A program made the translations under genes and the position numbers. DNA of 64,000 nt from a bacterium (GTDB lineage Bacteria > Patescibacteriota > Minisyncoccia > Phycocordibacterales > UBA2100): assembly GCA_030648265.1 (NCBI GenBank), contig JAUSHX010000028.1, positions 249 to 64,248 on the forward strand, in the 5' to 3' direction. The notes beneath the pieces are model-generated. The model saw only the letters and a list, made by a program, of their open reading frames with translations. It searched no databases and was not told where the DNA came from. Shown piece by piece: positions 2,760-60,850 of the stretch (position 1 is the first letter of the stretch; each line of letters opens with the position of its first letter).

Positions 2760-3911
2760 ATGTCTTTCTCCCTCGGCGGTATTTCAAAATTCTTCAAGTC
2801 CTCATTCGGAGGAAGTTCCGAGGGGAGCATTATCGGCATTGACATCGGTGCGTCGTCCGCGAAAATTGTCCAGTTGCGCGCGTCCCGCGGGACGGCGATT
2901 CTTGAAACGTACGGAGAAATCGCTCTCGGGCCCTACGGAGGCCAGGCAATCGGCAAAGCGGTGAAACTGACTCCGGAAAAAATTGCCGAGGCGCTCAGCG
3001 ATCTCATGCGCGAGGCAAATGTGACCGCCCGTACTGGCGGGCTCTCCATACCCTTTTCTGCGAGTCTCGTGTCGGTGCTTGAAATGCCGAAAGTGGACAA
3101 AGATTCTCTAAAGAGAATGGTTCCGATAGAGGCGCGCAAATATATTCCGCTTCCCGTATCGGAAGTCACTCTTGATTGGTTCGTCATACCGCATGAGGAG
3201 CAGGGGGAGAGCGCGTTTGACCAGGTGGAGGCGCCCAAACCCGTTCACGCGAGAATGCAGGAAATCCTCCTCGTCGCCATACATAATGAAATCCTCCGGG
3301 ACTATCAGAAGATATCAGAGGCAACCGGGCTCAACGTGAGTTTCTACGAGATTGAGATTTTCAGCGCGACTCGTTCCTCAATGGGGCATGGCGCGGCGCC
3401 TGTCTTGGTTGTTGATTTGGGCGCGGCGACGACGAAGATGTATATTGTGGAGCGCGGGATTGTGCGCCTTACCCACCTGCTCACATCCGGCGGACAAAAC
3501 ATGACGGATACGCTGGCGCGCTCGCTCTCATGGGAATTTGAAAAAGCGGAGCGCGTGAAGAGGGAAATCGGACTTGTCAGTTCAACCGCGTACAGCACGG
3601 ATGAGAACGACCGGATAAAGACGGCATTGTTATCAACACTCTCCCGTGTGTTTTCTGAGATAGACCGAGTATTATTAAGCTACGGGCAGCGATATAACAA
3701 AAACGTGTCGAATGTCCTCTTGACTGGAGGAGGGGCATCGCTACCCGGCCTTGCGGAACATGCCAAGGGGTCGTTGCACGCGGAAGTTCTGATTGCGGAT
3801 CCTTTTTCGCGCTCGGAGGCGCCCGCATTTCTCCGAGATGTTCTGCGGCAGATTGGTCCGGGGTTTTCCGTTGCGGTGGGTCTTGCGTTGCGGAATTTGA
3901 AGCAAGGATAA
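2760..3911 (+). CDS. pilM: type IV pilus assembly protein PilM (actin-like ATPase fold)
   Basis: IGIDIGASSAKIVQL N-terminus, 383 aa, first gene of the pilus operon. Confidence 0.8.
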   Translation: MSFSLGGISKFFKSSFGGSSEGSIIGIDIGASSAKIVQLRASRGTAILETYGEIALGPYGGQAIGKAVKLTPEKIAEALSDLMREANVTARTGGLSIPFSASLVSVLEMPKVDKDSLKRMVPIEARKYIPLPVSEVTLDWFVIPHEEQGESAFDQVEAPKPVHARMQEILLVAIHNEILRDYQKISEATGLNVSFYEIEIFSATRSSMGHGAAPVLVVDLGAATTKMYIVERGIVRLTHLLTSGGQNMTDTLARSLSWEFEKAERVKREIGLVSSTAYSTDENDRIKTALLSTLSRVFSEIDRVLLSYGQRYNKNVSNVLLTGGGASLPGLAEHAKGSLHAEVLIADPFSRSEAPAFLRDVLRQIGPGFSVAVGLALRNLKQG

Positions 3912-20979: not shown

Positions 20980-21104
20980 TCTGCCTTGAGATTTTATCGC
21001 GTCGTTTTTCCCGCGCATAGCCACGTGACAAAATGACGCCAACGCAAGCGCTACTTTGTTTTTACGTGGTTGCGAGAGTTGGAAATTTGCAGTATATTCA
21101 CGCG

Positions 21105-21179
21105 AGCGGGGTGGAGCAGTAGTAGCTCGCAAGGCTCATAACCTTGAGGTCGCAGGTGCAATTCCTGTCCCCGCAACCA
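21105..21179 (+). tRNA. initiator tRNA-Met (CAT), CCA encoded
   Basis: AGCGGGGTGGAGCAG...GGCTCATAACC...CCCCGCAACCA. There is a 1:72 mismatch and three G-C pairs in the anticodon stem, as in bacterial tRNA-fMet. Confidence 0.85.
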
Positions 21180-21188
21180 CGTAAAACG

Positions 21189-21213
21189 AAAACCCCGCCA
21201 TTGGCGGGGTTTT
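21189..21213 (+). terminator. rho-independent terminator after tRNA-fMet
   Basis: AAAACCCCGCC-ATTG-GCGGGGTTTT. Confidence 0.7.
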
Positions 21214-21327
21214 CGTCACGTGGCTTGCGCCAGCAGGACATGTGTGAGCGAAGCGATTTACGTGGTTGAGCCGCGTGGTGAACGGAGTGAGCTTTACGCG
21301 GCAACTTATTCACGTAAGAATGTGTAC

Positions 21328-21591
21328 ATGTACCATGTTTACCTTTTAGAAAACCAAGACGACAAAAGTTGGTATATCGGCTACAGCGCCAATCTCAAAC
21401 AACGAATCGAGCGGCATCAAAAGGGTGATGGCGCTCGCACAACAAGTAGAAAGGAAAACTGGGATTTGATTTACTATGAAGCCTACAAAAACGAACAAGA
21501 TGCAAAAGGACGCGAGCGCTTCCTTAAAAGCGGGTCTGGCAGAAAGTTCCTAAAAAAACAGCTCGCACACTATTTGGTTAGTGAATTGTGA
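21328..21591 (+). CDS. stand-alone GIY-YIG nuclease (YhbQ/UPF0213-like)
   Basis: MYHVYLLEN..SWYIGYSANLKQRIERH..LIYYEAY..RERFLKSGSG. Confidence 0.75.
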   Translation: MYHVYLLENQDDKSWYIGYSANLKQRIERHQKGDGARTTSRKENWDLIYYEAYKNEQDAKGRERFLKSGSGRKFLKKQLAHYLVSEL

Positions 21592-21843
21592 CGCCATTTC
21601 CTGCCCCTGCAACACGGTTGTGACGCCAGGGAACCACATTCCCACAGGCGTCGAAAGTGCAAGAAGTCGGTACGGTACCGACTCCCATGGTCGGCTATAA
21701 AAGCGCATGAAACCACGCGAGTGGTTTTTGCGCATGCAATGTTCTCAACGTATTTTTGGTGCAATTCCAATTCTCGTGCAAATCAGTGATGTGTGTTGAA
21801 ATCGTGAAAATAGGCGTATTTCCTAAGTAATTCACGATTATGC

Positions 21844-21898: not shown

Positions 21899-22771
21899 AT
21901 GACAAAGACTCCTCAAACACTCAGCCAGATTAAATTGCTCCGCGAGCGCTACTATAAGGCGCTGCCGGGCAAAGAGTTGCTCATCAAGATTATCAATGAG
22001 TCGGAAATTCCCGAGCACGTTTATAATTCAAACGCTATAGAAAATAGCACGCTCACCCTAGAGGAGACCGAAAAAATTCTCCTCCAGATTGATCTTGGCC
22101 GATATGTAAACGAGCGGGAAATTTTTGAAGCGAGGAATCTCGCGCGCGTTGTTGAATATATAGAAACGAAAGCAAAAGAAGCCGAGCTCTCTTTGTCCGG
22201 CATATGCCTGCTTCATAAAATGCTTATTGCCAATATCCGCGACGATGTCGCCGGCAGGTTCCGTCAGACTGGCGAGTGGGTGCGCGTCGGCGCACACATG
22301 GGAGCAGACCCGAAAGACATTGAGCATCTTCTGACAAAAATGCTCACGACATACCACGCAAGCTCGCACGAGCATATTGTGAAGCGCATTGCCTGTCTTC
22401 ATCTCGCCATTGAACACATTCATCCATTTGTTGACGGCAACGGGCGAATCGGCCGCGTCATTAACAACTATGCACTCATTAGGGAGGGGTACGTGCCGAT
22501 TAATATCGCGTTCGTGAATCGCGCCCGCTATTATGATGCGTTCAAAGAGTCTGATGCGAGCGGCGCAACCTCGATTATGGAAGAGGTCGTTGGCCGTGCG
22601 CTTGCCACGAGCTACCACAAGCGCTTGGCATATCTTGAAGGCAAACACATCATCACTCTTGCCGAGTATGGCAAACAAAAAAAACTTTCTCACTCAAATC
22701 TCATTAACAAAGCTCACCGCCAGACCATCCCTGCCTTTCTTGAGAAAGGTGTATGGAAAATCGGAGTGTAG
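21899..22771 (+). CDS. Fic/DOC family protein
   Basis: Fic motif HPFVDGNGRIGR. Confidence 0.85.
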   Translation: MTKTPQTLSQIKLLRERYYKALPGKELLIKIINESEIPEHVYNSNAIENSTLTLEETEKILLQIDLGRYVNEREIFEARNLARVVEYIETKAKEAELSLSGICLLHKMLIANIRDDVAGRFRQTGEWVRVGAHMGADPKDIEHLLTKMLTTYHASSHEHIVKRIACLHLAIEHIHPFVDGNGRIGRVINNYALIREGYVPINIAFVNRARYYDAFKESDASGATSIMEEVVGRALATSYHKRLAYLEGKHIITLAEYGKQKKLSHSNLINKAHRQTIPAFLEKGVWKIGV

Positions 22772-58238: not shown

Positions 58239-59549
58239 CTAACCTAATGAGCTGAACAAATGTTCTGCAATTCTGTCAGATGGCAGGGTGAGCTCGTTGC
58301 CGGTGGCGAGATTCTTTATCGTGTAGCGCCCGGATTCTCTCTCTTGCGCTCCAATAGCGATAACGAACGGCACCTTCATTTTATCGGCTTGGCGTATCTG
58401 GTCGCCGATGCGTTTTCCGGAGAAGTTCACGGCGACATTTACATCTTCTCTCCGCAGTTCTTGGGCGAGGCGCATAGCGTGCGGGAGGGCCGCGGTATCT
58501 ACAACGCACAACATGAGTTCTGTCGCCGGAGCATACACGGGTAACAGGTTATGCGCCTCAAGGAAATCGCGCGCGGTGACATCGCCCATTCCAAAACCGA
58601 CGGCCGGAATAGAAGAGCCACCTCCGCCAGAGGCGGATCCTCCTCCGGAGGAGAAGAGCGAAAGCAGGTTGTCGTATCGCCCTCCGCCGAAAATTGACCT
58701 CCTGTTATTTTCGTCGGTGTCATAAACCTCAAACACCATGCCCGTGTAGTAGTCAAATCCGCGCGTTATTTTCGTGTCTACAACCATGTTGTGCACGCCC
58801 ATCGATTCAAGCTGCGTGCGCAATTCTTCCAGATATGCCGTGCTCGTCGTGCGCTCCAAAAGTTCCAATAGTTGTTCTGCTTTCTTGTTGCCCACCAGTG
58901 CCGGAAGTTTCTTATTAAAATCGGGACTTTTCCCGCGCGTGTCCAGGAGCCGCGTCAGTTGAGCACGAATCTCCGCATCAATCTCCACAGAATCATAAAT
59001 TGAATCAATAATCCGGCGGTCGGAAACGCGTATCTCAAAATTCCGCTCATCGGCTCCGAGCGAACGCATAACGCTGTGCGCGAGCGTGATGATTTCCGCA
59101 TCCGCTTCAACGCCGGAGGCACCCACTATATCGGCGTTCAACTGCCAGTGTTCGCGCAGGCGCCCGCGCTGCGGCCGTTCATAGCGGAACATGTTTGCGA
59201 TTGAGTACCACCGGGCTGGAAGTGATATTTCCCGCGCCTTGCTTGCCACCATGCGTGCGAATGTCGGAGTCATTTCAGGCCTCAGGGTTACCTCGCGGTC
59301 GCCGCGGTCTTTAAATGTATACGTCTGGTCATTGACTATTTCCTCGGAAGTCTTGCCACGATAGAGCTCACTCGGTTCCAATACGGAAGCGCTGTACTCC
59401 TCATAGCCAAAAAGCTCGCAGACGCGCTCCATGTGTTCAAAGAGGTAGCGTAAAACAAATTGGTCTTCGGGGTAAAAATCGCGGACGCCCTTGTATGGTT
59501 CAGAAGAAAGTTTCTCACCTCGTTTAGCCATTGGCATATTATGCACCAA
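58239..59549 (-). CDS. hisS: histidyl-tRNA synthetase (with Gly/Ser-rich insertion)
   Basis: GVRDFYPED, class II aaRS motifs, RYERPQRGR, a GGGSASGGGGSS insert and a C-terminal anticodon-binding domain. Confidence 0.9.
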   Translation of the reverse strand: MVHNMPMAKRGEKLSSEPYKGVRDFYPEDQFVLRYLFEHMERVCELFGYEEYSASVLEPSELYRGKTSEEIVNDQTYTFKDRGDREVTLRPEMTPTFARMVASKAREISLPARWYSIANMFRYERPQRGRLREHWQLNADIVGASGVEADAEIITLAHSVMRSLGADERNFEIRVSDRRIIDSIYDSVEIDAEIRAQLTRLLDTRGKSPDFNKKLPALVGNKKAEQLLELLERTTSTAYLEELRTQLESMGVHNMVVDTKITRGFDYYTGMVFEVYDTDENNRRSIFGGGRYDNLLSLFSSGGGSASGGGGSSIPAVGFGMGDVTARDFLEAHNLLPVYAPATELMLCVVDTAALPHAMRLAQELRREDVNVAVNFSGKRIGDQIRQADKMKVPFVIAIGAQERESGRYTIKNLATGNELTLPSDRIAEHLFSSLG

Positions 59550-59701
59550 AAATGCGTACGGGGAAGTGTAATGGACAATAGCAATTTGTTTTCGTCGAAA
59601 ATCTCCTGATTTTCGACGCGATTTTTGCTCCTTGGATTACCAAGGAAAAAATCGTTTGCAAAATGGCTTTAATACGATATAGTCTTGGGCACAAACCAGA
59701 T

Positions 59702-59809
59702 ATGTCGCAGGATCAACTTTTTAAACTCGCGTGTGCAAAGTGCGGCTGTATTAATGCCGACGTTACAGTCGGCACCCCGACCGCAGAGCGCGTCGGGGCT
59801 ATTGGCTAA
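59702..59809 (+). pseudogene. duplicated 5' fragment of rpmG (first 18 codons) followed by two hairpins
   Basis: MSQDQLFKLACAKCGCIN.. against the genuine MSQDQLFKLACTKCGRIN. Then GCCGAC-GTTACA-GTCGGC and CCCCGAC-N10-GTCGGGG. Confidence 0.55.
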
Positions 59810-59819
59810 CTTTTATCGT

Positions 59820-59978
59820 ATGTCTCAAGATCAACTTTTCAAATTAGCCTGCACAAAGTGTGGAAGAATAAATTATTGGTCGCGCAAAAACCGCAAGCTT
59901 GTCACGCGCAAAATTGAACTGAAGAAGTACTGCAAATGGTGTCGCGCTCATATTAAGCACAAGGAGGCGAAAAAGTAG
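59820..59978 (+). CDS. rpmG: 50S ribosomal protein L33 (Zn-ribbon form)
   Basis: 52 aa, CTKCG...CKWC. Confidence 0.85.
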   Translation: MSQDQLFKLACTKCGRINYWSRKNRKLVTRKIELKKYCKWCRAHIKHKEAKK

Positions 59979-60115
59979 CTTCTAGCGACTAGGGGCTAGG
60001 TGATAGGAGAAAGAAGGTATGTTCCTTGGTTTGCCCAAAAAGGTAACCCGGTTGTGGACAACTGACCGTGTTAGTCCAACGATAAGGTATAATGTAACCG
60101 TAGATGTAGGTTCGT

Positions 60116-60784
60116 ATGCTCGCCAAAACATCGGAGAAGGAAAAAGCCATAAAGTTGCGGTCACGGGGTCATTCTTTGAATGAGATTTCTGATTTGCTCA
60201 AAATCTCGAAATCATCGGCCTCACTTTGGTTACGCGACGTACCTTTGTCCGAACAAGCAAGGAAAATAATCTTCCAGAAGCGCGAGCACGCTCGACTCAA
60301 ATCTGCACTAACGCACCACGCCCAGTTGCGGAAGCGACTTGATGAAGCTGAAGCATTTGCAGACGAGACTGTATCAACAATAAAGTTGGACAAGGCAATG
60401 TCTCGGGTAATGTGTTCGATATTGTATTGGTGCGAGGGCGAAAAAACCAACACGGACAAAACTCTAACATTTGCCAACTCTGACCCTAAACTTATTGCAA
60501 CATTCCTGGCTATGTTAAGGAAAGGTTTCGAGATTAACGAGAAAAAGCTTAGGGTGTGCCTGCATCTCCATGATTATCATGACGAAAAGCGGCAAATCGC
60601 ATTCTGGTCACGGATAACTGGTATACCGGCTACTCAATTCTCGAAAACGTATAACAAGCCACATACGGGCAAACGTACAAAGGAAGGATATGCAGGATGT
60701 GCAAGTATACGGTATTATGACACTCGAATCGCTCGGCAGGTGCAAGCCACGGCGCGAGCGTTTCTAAGGAAAACGGGCCTATAG
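60116..60784 (+). CDS. HTH protein with possible LAGLIDADG-like homing-endonuclease core
   Basis: N-terminal HTH (GHSLNEISDLLKISKSSASLWLRD), then ILYWCEGEK ... FANSDPKLIATFLAMLRKGF ... IAFWSRITGIP. The family assignment is from memory and unverified. Confidence 0.35.
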   Translation: MLAKTSEKEKAIKLRSRGHSLNEISDLLKISKSSASLWLRDVPLSEQARKIIFQKREHARLKSALTHHAQLRKRLDEAEAFADETVSTIKLDKAMSRVMCSILYWCEGEKTNTDKTLTFANSDPKLIATFLAMLRKGFEINEKKLRVCLHLHDYHDEKRQIAFWSRITGIPATQFSKTYNKPHTGKRTKEGYAGCASIRYYDTRIARQVQATARAFLRKTGL

Positions 60785-60846
60785 TTCAATGGCTAGAATT
60801 TCTCTCTCCAAAAGAGAAGATCAAGGTTCGAATCCTTGTGGGCCCG
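60775..60846 (+). tRNA. tRNA-Trp (CCA anticodon), no encoded CCA tail
   Basis: GGGCCTATAGTTCAATGGCTAGAATTTCTCTCTCCAAAAGAGAAGATCAAGGTTCGAATCCTTGTGGGCCCG. The first 10 nt overlap the end of the preceding CDS. Confidence 0.8.
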
Positions 60847-60850
60847 CAAT

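What the first reader, a model, noticed from the sequence alone, without database searches (positions are those of the whole stretch)
59702..59978. Duplicated first 18 codons of rpmG upstream of the real gene, separated by two hairpins
The ORF at 59702-59809 begins MSQDQLFKLACAKCGCIN. The genuine L33 at 59820 begins MSQDQLFKLACTKCGRIN. The two are about 76 percent identical at the nucleotide level, and most differences are synonymous.

Homology stops at codon 18. It is replaced by GCCGAC-GTTACA-GTCGGC and CCCCGAC-N10-GTCGGGG hairpins and a stop.

Together with the tRNA-fMet and rnpB cases, this is a third gene whose terminus is partially duplicated next to hairpin DNA. Such a footprint could be left by an element that regenerates its target's end. 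Alternatively it could be a leader ORF or attenuator for L33.
Basis: seen in the sequence. Interest (0 to 1): 0.5.

Follow-up and report, generated by a model that had tools for sequence, protein, structure and literature searches.

The report
Mobile double hairpin split rpmG's start
A 44-base mobile double-hairpin element, widespread in Parcubacteria-type (CPR) bacteria, sits inside a dead copy of the first 20 codons of the ribosomal protein L33 gene, an intact gene follows 21 bases later, and the same "broken start plus intact copy" layout recurs at L33 and tRNA genes in many related genomes.

Summary
Window 59701-59755 and 59819-59873 are a 55-nt direct repeat, 76% identical; 16 of 18 codons encode the same residue.

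The two hairpins are one copy of a conserved element I call E (59755-59798), made of two abutting hairpins. It has more than 100 relatives in CPR metagenome contigs. It inserts without target duplication, usually after (T)CAR. Inside long ORFs its length is mostly a multiple of three, as with Rickettsia palindromic elements.

The upstream fragment is the native gene start. It adjoins the promoter and 5' UTR that directly precede rpmG in the closest relatives, which lack the insert. After E the fragment continues for six bases (TATTGG, codons 19-20).

rpmG carries E at three sites (after codons 3, 5 and 18) in at least ten lineages, always as fragment, E, 6-10 more gene bases, AT-rich spacer, intact gene. 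tRNA genes show the same layout.

Best reading: E disrupted the gene start and a local tandem duplication restored the gene. E does not carry the gene end. A conserved leader ORF or attenuator is not supported.

One puzzle remains. Between two species the fragment differs at 1 of 54 bases, while the matching part of the working gene is saturated at synonymous sites.

The parts
59656..59684 (+). Predicted sigma-70-type promoter: TTGCAA, 16 nt, TATAGT
   Evidence: It is the only promoter-like site on the + strand in 59400-60200. The -10 box and what follows are conserved with L013, L021 and the R lineage (L201-L210), where the same promoter directly precedes rpmG or the same fragment.
59685..59701 (+). 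Native short 5' UTR of rpmG
   Evidence: CTTGGGCACAAACCAGAT aligns with CTTGGACACAAACTGAAT, which lies directly upstream of the rpmG ATG in L013 and L021. Those are the closest relatives (HisS 90% identical) and have no insert.
59702..59755 (+). Displaced native start of rpmG: codons 1-18, MSQDQLFKLACAKCGCIN, a dead fragment
   Evidence: 76% identical to 59820-59873. It is contiguous with the native promoter and UTR. It keeps the states shared with L013/L021 at codons 2, 3, 11 and 14, where the working copy is derived. It differs at 1 of 54 bases from the fragment in the R lineage.
59755..59798 (.). Element E: two abutting hairpins with 7-bp stems. Hairpin 1 is 59755-59774, with a bulged G after CCGAC. 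Hairpin 2 is 59775-59798, with a bulged C before GTCGG.
   Evidence: Covariance model R1 scores it 57.2 bits on the + strand and 51.4 on the - strand; it is the only copy in the window. It belongs to a family of at least 100 copies. The outer two base pairs of each stem covary: 139 double-sided changes against 35 in shuffles, 0 of 500 shuffles as high. The R lineage has a compensatory GAC/GTC to GAT/ATC change in hairpin 2. Base 59755 (T) is both the last base of codon 18 and the first paired base of hairpin 1.
59800..59805 (+). Continuation of the dead fragment: TATTGG, codons 19-20
   Evidence: Identical to 59874-59879 of the working gene. It is conserved after E in R and in L211/L212. The other rpmG insertion alleles and the tRNA cases likewise resume the gene for 6-19 nt after E.
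59806..59819 (+). AT-rich spacer CTAACTTTTATCGT. It contains the stop (59807-59809) of the accidental upstream ORF 59702-59809.
   Evidence: It has no counterpart in relatives without the insert. It differs at 3 positions in R. No Shine-Dalgarno-like motif is visible (read).
59820..59978 (+). Intact rpmG (L33, 52 aa, zinc-ribbon form). Codons 1-18 are the regenerated copy.
   Evidence: Pfam PF00471, E = 4.5e-17. Codons 19-52 are 88-89% identical to L013/L021 and codons 1-18 only 61-67%. Against R, codons 1-18 are saturated at synonymous sites while codons 19-52 have pS = 0.40.

Best explanation
The two hairpins are one copy of a small mobile palindromic element, E. It consists of two abutting hairpins with the conserved stems CCGAC/GTCGG. 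It resembles a REPIN in build and a Rickettsia palindromic element in behaviour.

E landed in the 5' coding part of rpmG, after the CAA-type site at codons 17-18. L33 is a 52-residue zinc ribbon and the insert is 44 nt, so the insertion destroyed that copy.

The gene survives because its first roughly 20 codons exist twice. The upstream copy is the original start. It is still attached to the native promoter and 5' UTR, is interrupted by E, and ends six bases after E. A 14-nt AT-rich spacer follows, then a complete rpmG.

The second copy arose by a short local tandem duplication of the gene's own start, or by recombination with an uninterrupted allele. It was not brought in by E.

Today the promoter probably transcribes fragment, E, spacer and rpmG as one mRNA, so fragment and E act as a 128-nt structured leader.

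Shown here:
- the identity, structure, spread and insertion habits of E;
- that the fragment is the native start;
- that the layout recurs.

Inferred:
- the order and mechanism of insertion and duplication;
- co-transcription;
- how L33 translation starts at the internal ATG.
For: E is a family:
- 100 copies align cleanly, with strong covariation in stem positions that the search pattern did not fix.
- There is no Rfam match.

Insertion habits:
- No target-site duplication; flank consensus TCAR|E|YTGA.
- Among copies inside long ORFs, 24 of 35 have a length divisible by 3, against 23 of 67 elsewhere (Fisher P = 0.0015). In-frame copies are therefore tolerated in proteins.
- None of the five rpmG copies, measured as (two 7-bp stems plus loops; my count), has a length divisible by 3.

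Empty site:
- L013 and L021 (HisS 90% identical, same hisS-rpmG neighbourhood) have the same promoter and UTR followed directly by rpmG.

Recurrence at rpmG:
- Of 5 E copies in 544 kb around rpmG in 80 species, 4 lie in an rpmG start fragment (P = 5.6e-8).
- Three insertion alleles exist: after codon 3 (L052, L072), after codon 5 (L005, L015, L213, L214) and after codon 18 (window, L201-L210, L211/L212). Each follows a CAA, and each is built fragment, E, 6-10 nt more gene, spacer, intact gene.

Recurrence at tRNAs:
- 14 of 106 E copies lie within 60 nt upstream of a tRNA 5' end, where 0.6 are expected.
- The left flank is repeated downstream in 20 of 122 copies, against 1 in the reverse-complement control for that comparison.
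- Fragments match the adjacent tRNA-Arg, -Thr, -Val, -Ile, -Asp or -Lys. The duplicated DNA is therefore local, not carried by the element.
Against: - A neutral dead fragment should decay, yet the window and R fragments differ at 1 of 54 bases. Their 3' non-coding DNA is unalignable, and rpmG codons 19-52 have pS = 0.40.
- Fragment and working copy are saturated at synonymous sites (pS = 0.90) but similar in protein (pN = 0.09). This looks like two alleles that diverged while functional, rather than a duplicate plus neutral decay.
- A test of whether recoding improved start-site accessibility was inconclusive: opening energy 5.7 kcal/mol against 6.2-7.0 with the fragment's codons, at the 25th percentile of random recodings.
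- No transposase was found for E. The window holds no IS200-like ORF, but it is only part of the genome.
- The step that couples insertion and duplication is unknown. Many tRNA end-fragments in these genomes carry no E, so fragments may predate E.
Confidence: 0.65

Rival explanations
1. Integrase-type footprint. An integrative element carrying its own copy of the rpmG 5' end recombined into the gene. Its copy now completes the gene and the host's original end was displaced. The hairpins would be what remains of the element or of its attachment site.
For: - A complete and a partial copy in direct orientation is the classic signature of integration into tRNA genes (PMC9897764, read).
- The fragment keeps the ancestral codon states and the working copy the derived ones.
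- The differences are almost all synonymous, as expected if the two copies come from different lineages.
- Short recombination tracts from diverged alleles do occur in rpmG: 8 of 13 polymorphic sites in the R population lie within a 73-nt stretch of the gene.
Against: - Only 64 nt separate the repeats and there is no recombinase.
- E lies inside the partial copy, with the gene sequence resuming after it, not between the repeats.
- The same element accompanies fragments of many different genes, each matching its neighbour.
- The regenerated segment does not travel with E. The window and R share E and the fragment at 93-98% identity but differ at 15 of 54 bases in the regenerated segment.
- In L033 the working 3' end shares the lineage-specific AGG codon with its own remnant.
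Confidence: 0.1
2. A functional leader. The fragment and hairpins are kept because they regulate L33, either as a translated upstream ORF coupled to the rpmG start or as a structured RNA that controls mRNA stability, translation or feedback by L33.
For: - Between the window and R, the promoter, fragment and hairpin 1 are 96-98% identical, the same as the tRNA-Trp gene, while coding DNA is 80-89% identical and the rpmG 3' spacer 28-40%.
- One stem change in hairpin 2 is compensatory, and the other leader changes fit a predicted three-hairpin fold. In that fold an 11-bp helix covers the fragment's AUG.
- The upstream ORF stops 10 nt before the rpmG ATG in both lineages.
- In all three rpmG alleles the intact ATG lies 16-23 nt after E (my count).
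Against: - The upstream ORF is not conserved. It is 9 codons in L005, runs out of frame into rpmG in L015, is fused in frame to L33 in L211, and has lost its ATG in L211/L212.
- The changes between the window and R within the upstream ORF are 3 non-synonymous to 1 synonymous (my count).
- There is no terminator-like tail.
- The fold is no more stable than shuffles (z = -1.7).
- E occurs in more than 100 unrelated contexts, including inside proteins. Most rpmG genes in the group (76 of 81 loci) do without it.
Confidence: 0.15
3. A selfish guide-like or homing module. The RNA made of gene fragment plus double hairpin, or the DNA itself, directs a trans-acting enzyme to uninterrupted alleles. This would explain a frozen fragment and a recoded working copy.
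For: - The fragment is frozen (1 of 54 differences), while the homologous 18 codons of the working gene are saturated at synonymous sites in both lineages and the codons beyond the repeat are not.
- Fragments sit directly after strong promoters and directly before a hairpin scaffold.
- A patchily distributed 222-aa HTH gene sits next to rpmG in several lineages.
Against: - tRNA fragments are identical to the adjacent working tRNA, which cannot be recoded.
- Working rpmG copies often keep the CAA target.
- L211 has lost most of the fragment.
- No nuclease has been identified.
- In L005 the acceleration of the working copy is not significant.
Confidence: 0.05
4. Chance similarity, or an assembly artefact.
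For: None beyond the short length of the repeat.
Against: - P is about 1e-11 after allowing for offsets.
- The same architecture is found in 13 independently assembled contigs of a sister lineage and in GTDB genomes of other families.
Confidence: 0.01

Closest known systems
Rickettsia palindromic elements (RPEs)
   Same: Short, non-autonomous palindromic repeats that insert into genes as well as between them. They persist inside protein-coding genes when the reading frame is kept: here 24 of 35 intragenic copies have a length divisible by 3. Their distribution among related genomes is patchy.
   Different: E is two abutting hairpins with fixed CCGAC/GTCGG stems. The hosts are CPR bacteria. The pairing with a regenerated copy of the interrupted gene end is not a described RPE feature, to my knowledge.
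REP / REPIN elements mobilised by RAYT transposases
   Same: E is two short palindromic units in inverted orientation. Loop types of hairpin 1 recur as reverse complements in hairpin 2, and some copies are near-perfect palindromes. Each hairpin has a conserved unpaired base. E is non-autonomous. REPINs are defined as two inverted REPs with a spacer (PMC3337134 abstract).
   Different: REPINs are extragenic and occur in tens to hundreds of copies per genome, with a single RAYT gene. E is rare here, with 1 copy in 64 kb and 5 in 544 kb. It is often intragenic. No RAYT-like gene was seen. No paper in the library links REPINs or RAYTs with Patescibacteria.
IS200/IS605-type insertion and its miniature derivatives (PATEs)
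   Same: Insertion without target duplication next to a short preferred motif ((T)CAR), and ends made of hairpins with an unpaired base. This comparison with IS200/IS605 rests on my own knowledge.
   Different: No Y1 transposase was found. E is symmetric, whereas IS200/IS605 elements have distinct left and right ends. The flank preference is two-sided.
Integrase-mediated integration into tRNA genes with regeneration of the gene end
   Same: [quoted passage not shown]
   Different: In that case 9-23 kb of element with an integrase lies between the copies, and the 3' end is usually the one involved. Here 64 nt lie between them, there is no recombinase, the 5' end is involved, and the small element is inside the partial copy.
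Upstream ORFs and structured leaders of ribosomal-protein operons
   Same: A structured 5' leader with a short ORF ending just before the start of a ribosomal protein gene.
   Different: No conserved peptide, no terminator, no Rfam family. The ORF is a by-product of a gene fragment and varies among lineages.

Membership tests
REPIN / RAYT system | Two REP-like palindromic units in inverted orientation that can fold as hairpins | tested here: met
   Both hairpins share the CCGAC/GTCGG stems. 13 of 59 loop types of hairpin 1 recur as reverse complements among the hairpin 2 loops. The covariance model scores both strands almost equally (57.2 and 51.4 bits).
REPIN / RAYT system | Extragenic location and high copy number within a genome | tested here: not met
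   One copy in the 64-kb window. Five in 544 kb of 80 genomes. 35 of 102 copies lie inside long ORFs.
REPIN / RAYT system | A cognate RAYT (Y1/HUH) transposase gene in the genome | not testable with these tools
   No candidate in the window by motif scan or by Pfam on nearby ORFs. Only about a tenth of a typical CPR genome is held here.
Classical MITE | Terminal inverted repeats flanked by a short target-site duplication | tested here: not met
   Matching flanks occur at chance level: 4 copies with n = 2 (6.2 expected), 4 with n = 3 (1.6 expected), 1 with n = 4 (0.4 expected). The tRNA and codon-5 rpmG sites show exact insertion with no duplicated bases.
RPE-like in-frame palindromic element | Copies inside protein-coding genes preserve the reading frame | tested here: met
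   24 of 35 intragenic copies have a length divisible by 3, against 23 of 67 elsewhere. Fisher P = 0.0015; binomial against one third, P = 2e-5.
Integrative element with regenerated target end (att duplication) | The direct repeats flank an element that encodes, or derives from one that encodes, a site-specific recombinase, and the element carries the replacement end | tested here: not met
   64 nt between the repeats and no ORF. E lies inside the partial copy. The fragments always match the neighbouring gene across at least nine different genes.
Leader-peptide attenuator | A conserved short ORF followed by alternative hairpins and an intrinsic terminator | tested here: not met
   The ORF is not conserved in length, frame or start. 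No terminator-like site follows the hairpins.
Diversity-generating retroelement (template and variable repeat) | The repeats differ only at adenines of the template copy | tested here: not met
   None of the 13 differences falls on an A of the conserved fragment.
Known RNA families (Rfam 15) | A match at or near the gathering score | tested here: not met
   No family covers 59640-59900 apart from a chance hit at E = 4.

The most novel reading that the evidence does not exclude
The fragment-plus-hairpin modules are not inert scars. They would be products of a dedicated process in CPR bacteria that couples insertion of a small structured element into an essential, highly expressed gene (tRNA or rpmG) with regeneration of that gene's end. 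At least some fragments would then be kept by selection as functional nucleic acid, for instance a guide-like or homing RNA or a regulatory leader. That would account for a fragment as conserved as a tRNA gene next to a working copy recoded to saturation.
Probability: 0.15. Interest if true: 0.85.

Novelty: new variant of a known kind. Interest (0 to 1): 0.6.

Why it matters
CPR/Patescibacteria genomes are small, and their mobile DNA is poorly described. I found no paper in the library on palindromic, REPIN-like or miniature elements in this group.

This work defines a new small element with a clear structural signature and a usable covariance model. It also shows how an insertion into an essential gene can persist: the element sits inside a dead end-fragment next to a regenerated intact copy.

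The same layout at tRNA genes affects annotation. Gene callers produce extended or fused L33 proteins of 58-112 aa, and tRNA fragments can be called as genes.

If the strong conservation of the fragment reflects a function, it would point to an unrecognised RNA or DNA mechanism acting at the start of translation-machinery genes.

Tried and rejected
- **Composition as a sign of foreign origin.** The first 18 codons of the working copy are AT-rich at third positions (GC3 = 0.28), but the whole gene is ordinary (0.51). Too few codons to decide.
- **Nearest-neighbour comparison** of the fragment and the working copy with 80 orthologues. Too short to resolve the origin.
- **Recoding to free the start site.** Inconclusive (a first run timed out).
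- **Outer third helix enclosing both hairpins.** Not supported; flank pairing is at shuffle level.
- **Exact-protein look-up of the window's L33.** Not on record.
- **The 222-aa neighbour gene as a homing endonuclease or transposase.** Only a weak HTH match in Pfam, NCBIfam, PHROGs and PDB sequences. Its structure was not predicted.
- **E in phages.** Only 5 matches in 2.9 million viral contigs.
- **Rfam for the 3' inserts** of L005, L033 and four further loci with tRNA remnants. No family.
- **DGR-type mutagenesis, translational bypass and hammerhead-like three-way junction.** Considered and dropped on sequence grounds.
- **Acceleration of the working copy in L005** against outgroups. Trend only, not significant.

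Full report
**1. The observation**

The sequence is as described. The repeat finder gives 59701-59755 against 59819-59873: 55 nt, 76% identity, 118 nt apart.

There are 13 differences in the 18 codons: 10 at third positions, 3 at first, none at second. 16 of 18 residues agree. The match cannot be chance (6e-15 per offset), and the third-position bias has P = 0.0016.

The ORF 59820-59978 is L33 (PF00471, E = 4.5e-17). The only promoter-like site on this strand, TTGCAA-16-TATAGT at 59656-59684, lies upstream of the fragment, not of the intact gene.

**2. The organism and the empty site**

A scan of one genome per species with the L33 protein returned 80 loci, mostly Candidatus Kaiserbacteria and other Parcubacteria/Paceibacterota.

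L013 and L021 are the closest. Their HisS is 90% identical and lies in the same divergent position. In both, the sequence CGATATAGTCTTGGACACAAACTGAAT runs straight into ATGTCGCAG of rpmG. In the window the same promoter and UTR run into the fragment.

The fragment is therefore the original start of the gene. Relative to these genomes, the window carries 118 extra bases.

**3. The hairpins are one element**

Four other rpmG loci (L005, L015, L052, L072) have the same pair of CCGAC...GTCGG hairpins just upstream of rpmG. Each follows a few codons of rpmG that in turn directly follow the promoter.

One hundred copies align well. Each hairpin has a 7-bp stem. The inner five pairs were fixed by my pattern, but the outer two were not, and they covary strongly: 139 double-sided changes against 35 in shuffles, 0 of 500 shuffles as high; 99% of cells paired against 23-56% when the partner is slid.

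Other features of the element:
- Hairpin 1 has an unpaired G after CCGAC. Hairpin 2 has an unpaired C before GTCGG.
- The two hairpins abut without a linker.
- Loop types of hairpin 1 recur as reverse complements in hairpin 2, and the model scores both strands almost equally. The element is close to symmetric.
- Rfam has nothing like it.

I call it E. In the window it is 59755-59798.

**4. How E behaves**

- It inserts exactly, with no duplicated bases. For example, GCTCAG|E|TTGGTAG lies in tRNA D-loops, and GATCAA|E|CTT in rpmG.
- The flanks show a consensus TCAR|E|YTGA.
- 35 of 102 copies lie inside long open frames. Of those, 24 have a length divisible by three, against 23 of 67 elsewhere (P = 0.0015). 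In-frame copies are therefore carried within proteins, as in Rickettsia palindromic elements.
- E is rare in this window (one copy) and around rpmG in general (five in 544 kb).
- It is nearly absent from viral contigs.

**5. The recurring layout**

Four of the five copies near rpmG lie in a start fragment of rpmG (P = 5.6e-8). The fifth lies in a start fragment of tRNA-Arg, 33 nt upstream of the intact tRNA-Arg.

With loci recovered through extended L33 gene calls, rpmG shows three insertion alleles:
- after codon 3: L052, L072;
- after codon 5: L005, L015, L213, L214;
- after codon 18: the window, the sister lineage R (L201-L210), and L211/L212.

Each site follows a CAA. Each allele reads: promoter, gene start, E, 6-10 more bases of the gene, an AT-rich spacer, then the intact gene 16-23 nt after E. 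In the window the bases after E are TATTGG (codons 19-20).

At tRNA genes:
- 14 of 106 E copies lie within 60 nt upstream of a tRNA 5' end, where 0.6 are expected.
- 20 of 122 copies have their left flank repeated downstream, against 1 in the reverse-complement control for that comparison.
- Each fragment matches the adjacent tRNA: Arg, Thr, Val, Ile, Asp or Lys.

Because one element family accompanies fragments of many different genes, the duplicated DNA is local and is not carried by E.

**6. Best explanation**

E inserted into the 5' part of rpmG. An insert of 44 nt in a 52-residue zinc-ribbon protein is destructive.

Only chromosomes that also had a second copy of the gene start survived. 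That copy could have formed in the same event, by unequal exchange with an uninterrupted sister or foreign allele, or beforehand.

The intact copy begins within about 10-50 nt of E at all loci. This hints at a mechanistic link, for example a template switch shortly after the hairpins. That is inference only.

The fragment and E now form the leader of the rpmG mRNA.

**7. What does not fit**

The sister lineage R has about 82% nucleotide identity to the window over 1.2 kb and has the same allele. Comparing the window with R:
- the fragment differs at 1 of 54 bases;
- E differs at 3 of 44, two of them a compensatory pair;
- the spacer differs at 3 of 20 (my count);
- the working codons 1-18 differ at 15 of 54, saturated at synonymous sites;
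- codons 19-52 have pS = 0.40;
- the DNA after the stop codon is unalignable.

The fragment is thus as conserved as the tRNA-Trp gene. Within each genome, fragment and working copy are saturated at synonymous sites but close in protein (pS = 0.90, pN = 0.09).

Three readings remain open:
- The leader is under selection. A predicted 11-bp helix covers the fragment's AUG, and the observed changes fit that fold.
- The leader block was exchanged recently between lineages. Short recombination tracts do occur in rpmG: 8 of 13 polymorphic sites in the R population fall in codons 18-42.
- The working copy was driven to diverge from the fragment.

Two results count against the first and third readings:
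- L211/L212 have lost most of the fragment, which argues against a general need for it.
- The start-site accessibility test was inconclusive.

**8. Rivals**

- *Integrase-type integration with a carried gene end.* This fits the direction of the differences. It fails on the position of E, the size of the insert, the variety of target genes, and the fact that the regenerated segment does not travel with E.
- *Conserved leader peptide or attenuator.* This fails because the upstream ORF varies in start, frame and stop, and because no terminator follows.
- *DGR-type change.* Excluded, because no difference falls on an adenine of the fragment.

**9.

In this window, tRNA-fMet and rnpB do not carry E. 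tRNA-Met is bracketed by inverted copies of its 3' end, which is a different arrangement.

In related genomes, however, end-fragments next to intact genes are common:
- 12 of 168 tRNAs have a copy of their first 10 nt upstream, and 13 of 168 a copy of their last 14 nt downstream. The position-swapped controls give 0 and the reverse-complement controls 2-3.
- Most of these fragments carry other structured inserts rather than E.
- rpmG itself has 3' end-fragments after a different structured insert in L005 and L033.

The general suspicion therefore has merit, even though the specific link within this window does not.

**10. Verdict**

This is a real and reproducible feature. The hairpins belong to a previously undescribed family of small palindromic mobile elements in CPR bacteria: new in sequence and host, known in kind.

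The coupling with regenerated gene ends, and the frozen fragment, are unusual and unexplained.

Noticed in passing
window 60116-60784 (+), overlapping tRNA-Trp 60775-60847 by 10 nt: A 222-aa ORF with only a weak N-terminal HTH match sits between rpmG and tRNA-Trp. Homologues (42-65% identity by tblastn) occupy the same slot right after rpmG in L008, L032, L052, L019 and L047. A weaker partial match (31% over 112 aa) lies about 1 kb further downstream in L010. A 222-aa gene occupies the slot in the R lineage too. L013, L021, L005 and L033 lack it, and there tRNA-Trp follows rpmG directly. The patchy, site-specific distribution suggests a mobile gene.
   Followed up: partly
L005 4160-4325 and L033 4160-4348: rpmG has 3' end duplications as well. 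After the stop codon comes a 120-190-nt structured insert (shared motif GGGGTCGGG-hairpin-CCGTGGAGGAA), then a copy of codons 38-52 with its stop. The copies differ from the working ends almost only at synonymous sites, and the remnant keeps the states seen in relatives. No Rfam match.
   Followed up: partly
L001-L080: for example L009 4279-4450, L001 6481-6595, L002 2003-2140, L042 4285-4430: Many tRNA genes (Trp, Leu, Tyr, Val) are followed by a hairpin and then a 3' remnant. The remnant consists of a stretch complementary to the T-arm, a 60-100-nt insert with the motif GGGGTCG-hairpin-GTGACCGA, then the T-arm 3' part and the acceptor 3' strand. 13 of 168 tRNAs have such a 3' copy and 12 of 168 a 5' copy, against 0 in the position-swapped controls. 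This looks like a second family of inserts in gene-end fragments.
   Followed up: partly
window 21055-21074, 21172-21191, 21254-21268: tRNA-fMet (21105-21179) is bracketed by inverted copies of its own 3' end plus trailer: a 20-nt pair 90% complementary and a 15-nt pair 93% complementary. This could form a long stem enclosing the tRNA. A perfect 15-bp terminator-like hairpin lies at 21186-21216. It is not the E element.
   Followed up: partly
window 21220-21591 (+): A GIY-YIG nuclease-domain ORF (PF01541, E = 2.5e-17) lies directly downstream of tRNA-fMet, followed by a Fic/DOC-family ORF at 21899-22771.
   Followed up: no
window 21678-21694: A single hairpin with the same CCGAC/GTCGG stem (CCGACTCCCATGGTCGG) lies between the GIY-YIG and Fic ORFs. 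The covariance model does not recognise it as E.
   Followed up: no
L201-L210, L201 coordinates 2966-3038: Within one groundwater population, 8 of 13 polymorphic sites in 1.6 kb fall in rpmG codons 18-42. None falls in 669 nt of the neighbouring ORF. This is the signature of a short recombination tract imported from a diverged rpmG allele.
   Followed up: partly
L049 4328-4387 (contig end): An exact inverted copy of the last 20 codons of rpmG lies at the very end of the contig, after tRNA-Trp. This is probably an assembly artefact.
   Followed up: no
P0002-P0047 (for example P0003, P0004, P0016): Gene callers often extend L33 upstream, giving products of 58-112 aa instead of 52. In several of them the extension is the translated E element or the -10 box. 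This is an annotation artefact to be aware of.
   Followed up: partly
window 59593-59618: A perfect 11-bp hairpin followed by CGATTTTTGC on the + strand lies in the hisS-rpmG intergenic region, upstream of the rpmG promoter. No + strand gene ends there.
   Followed up: no
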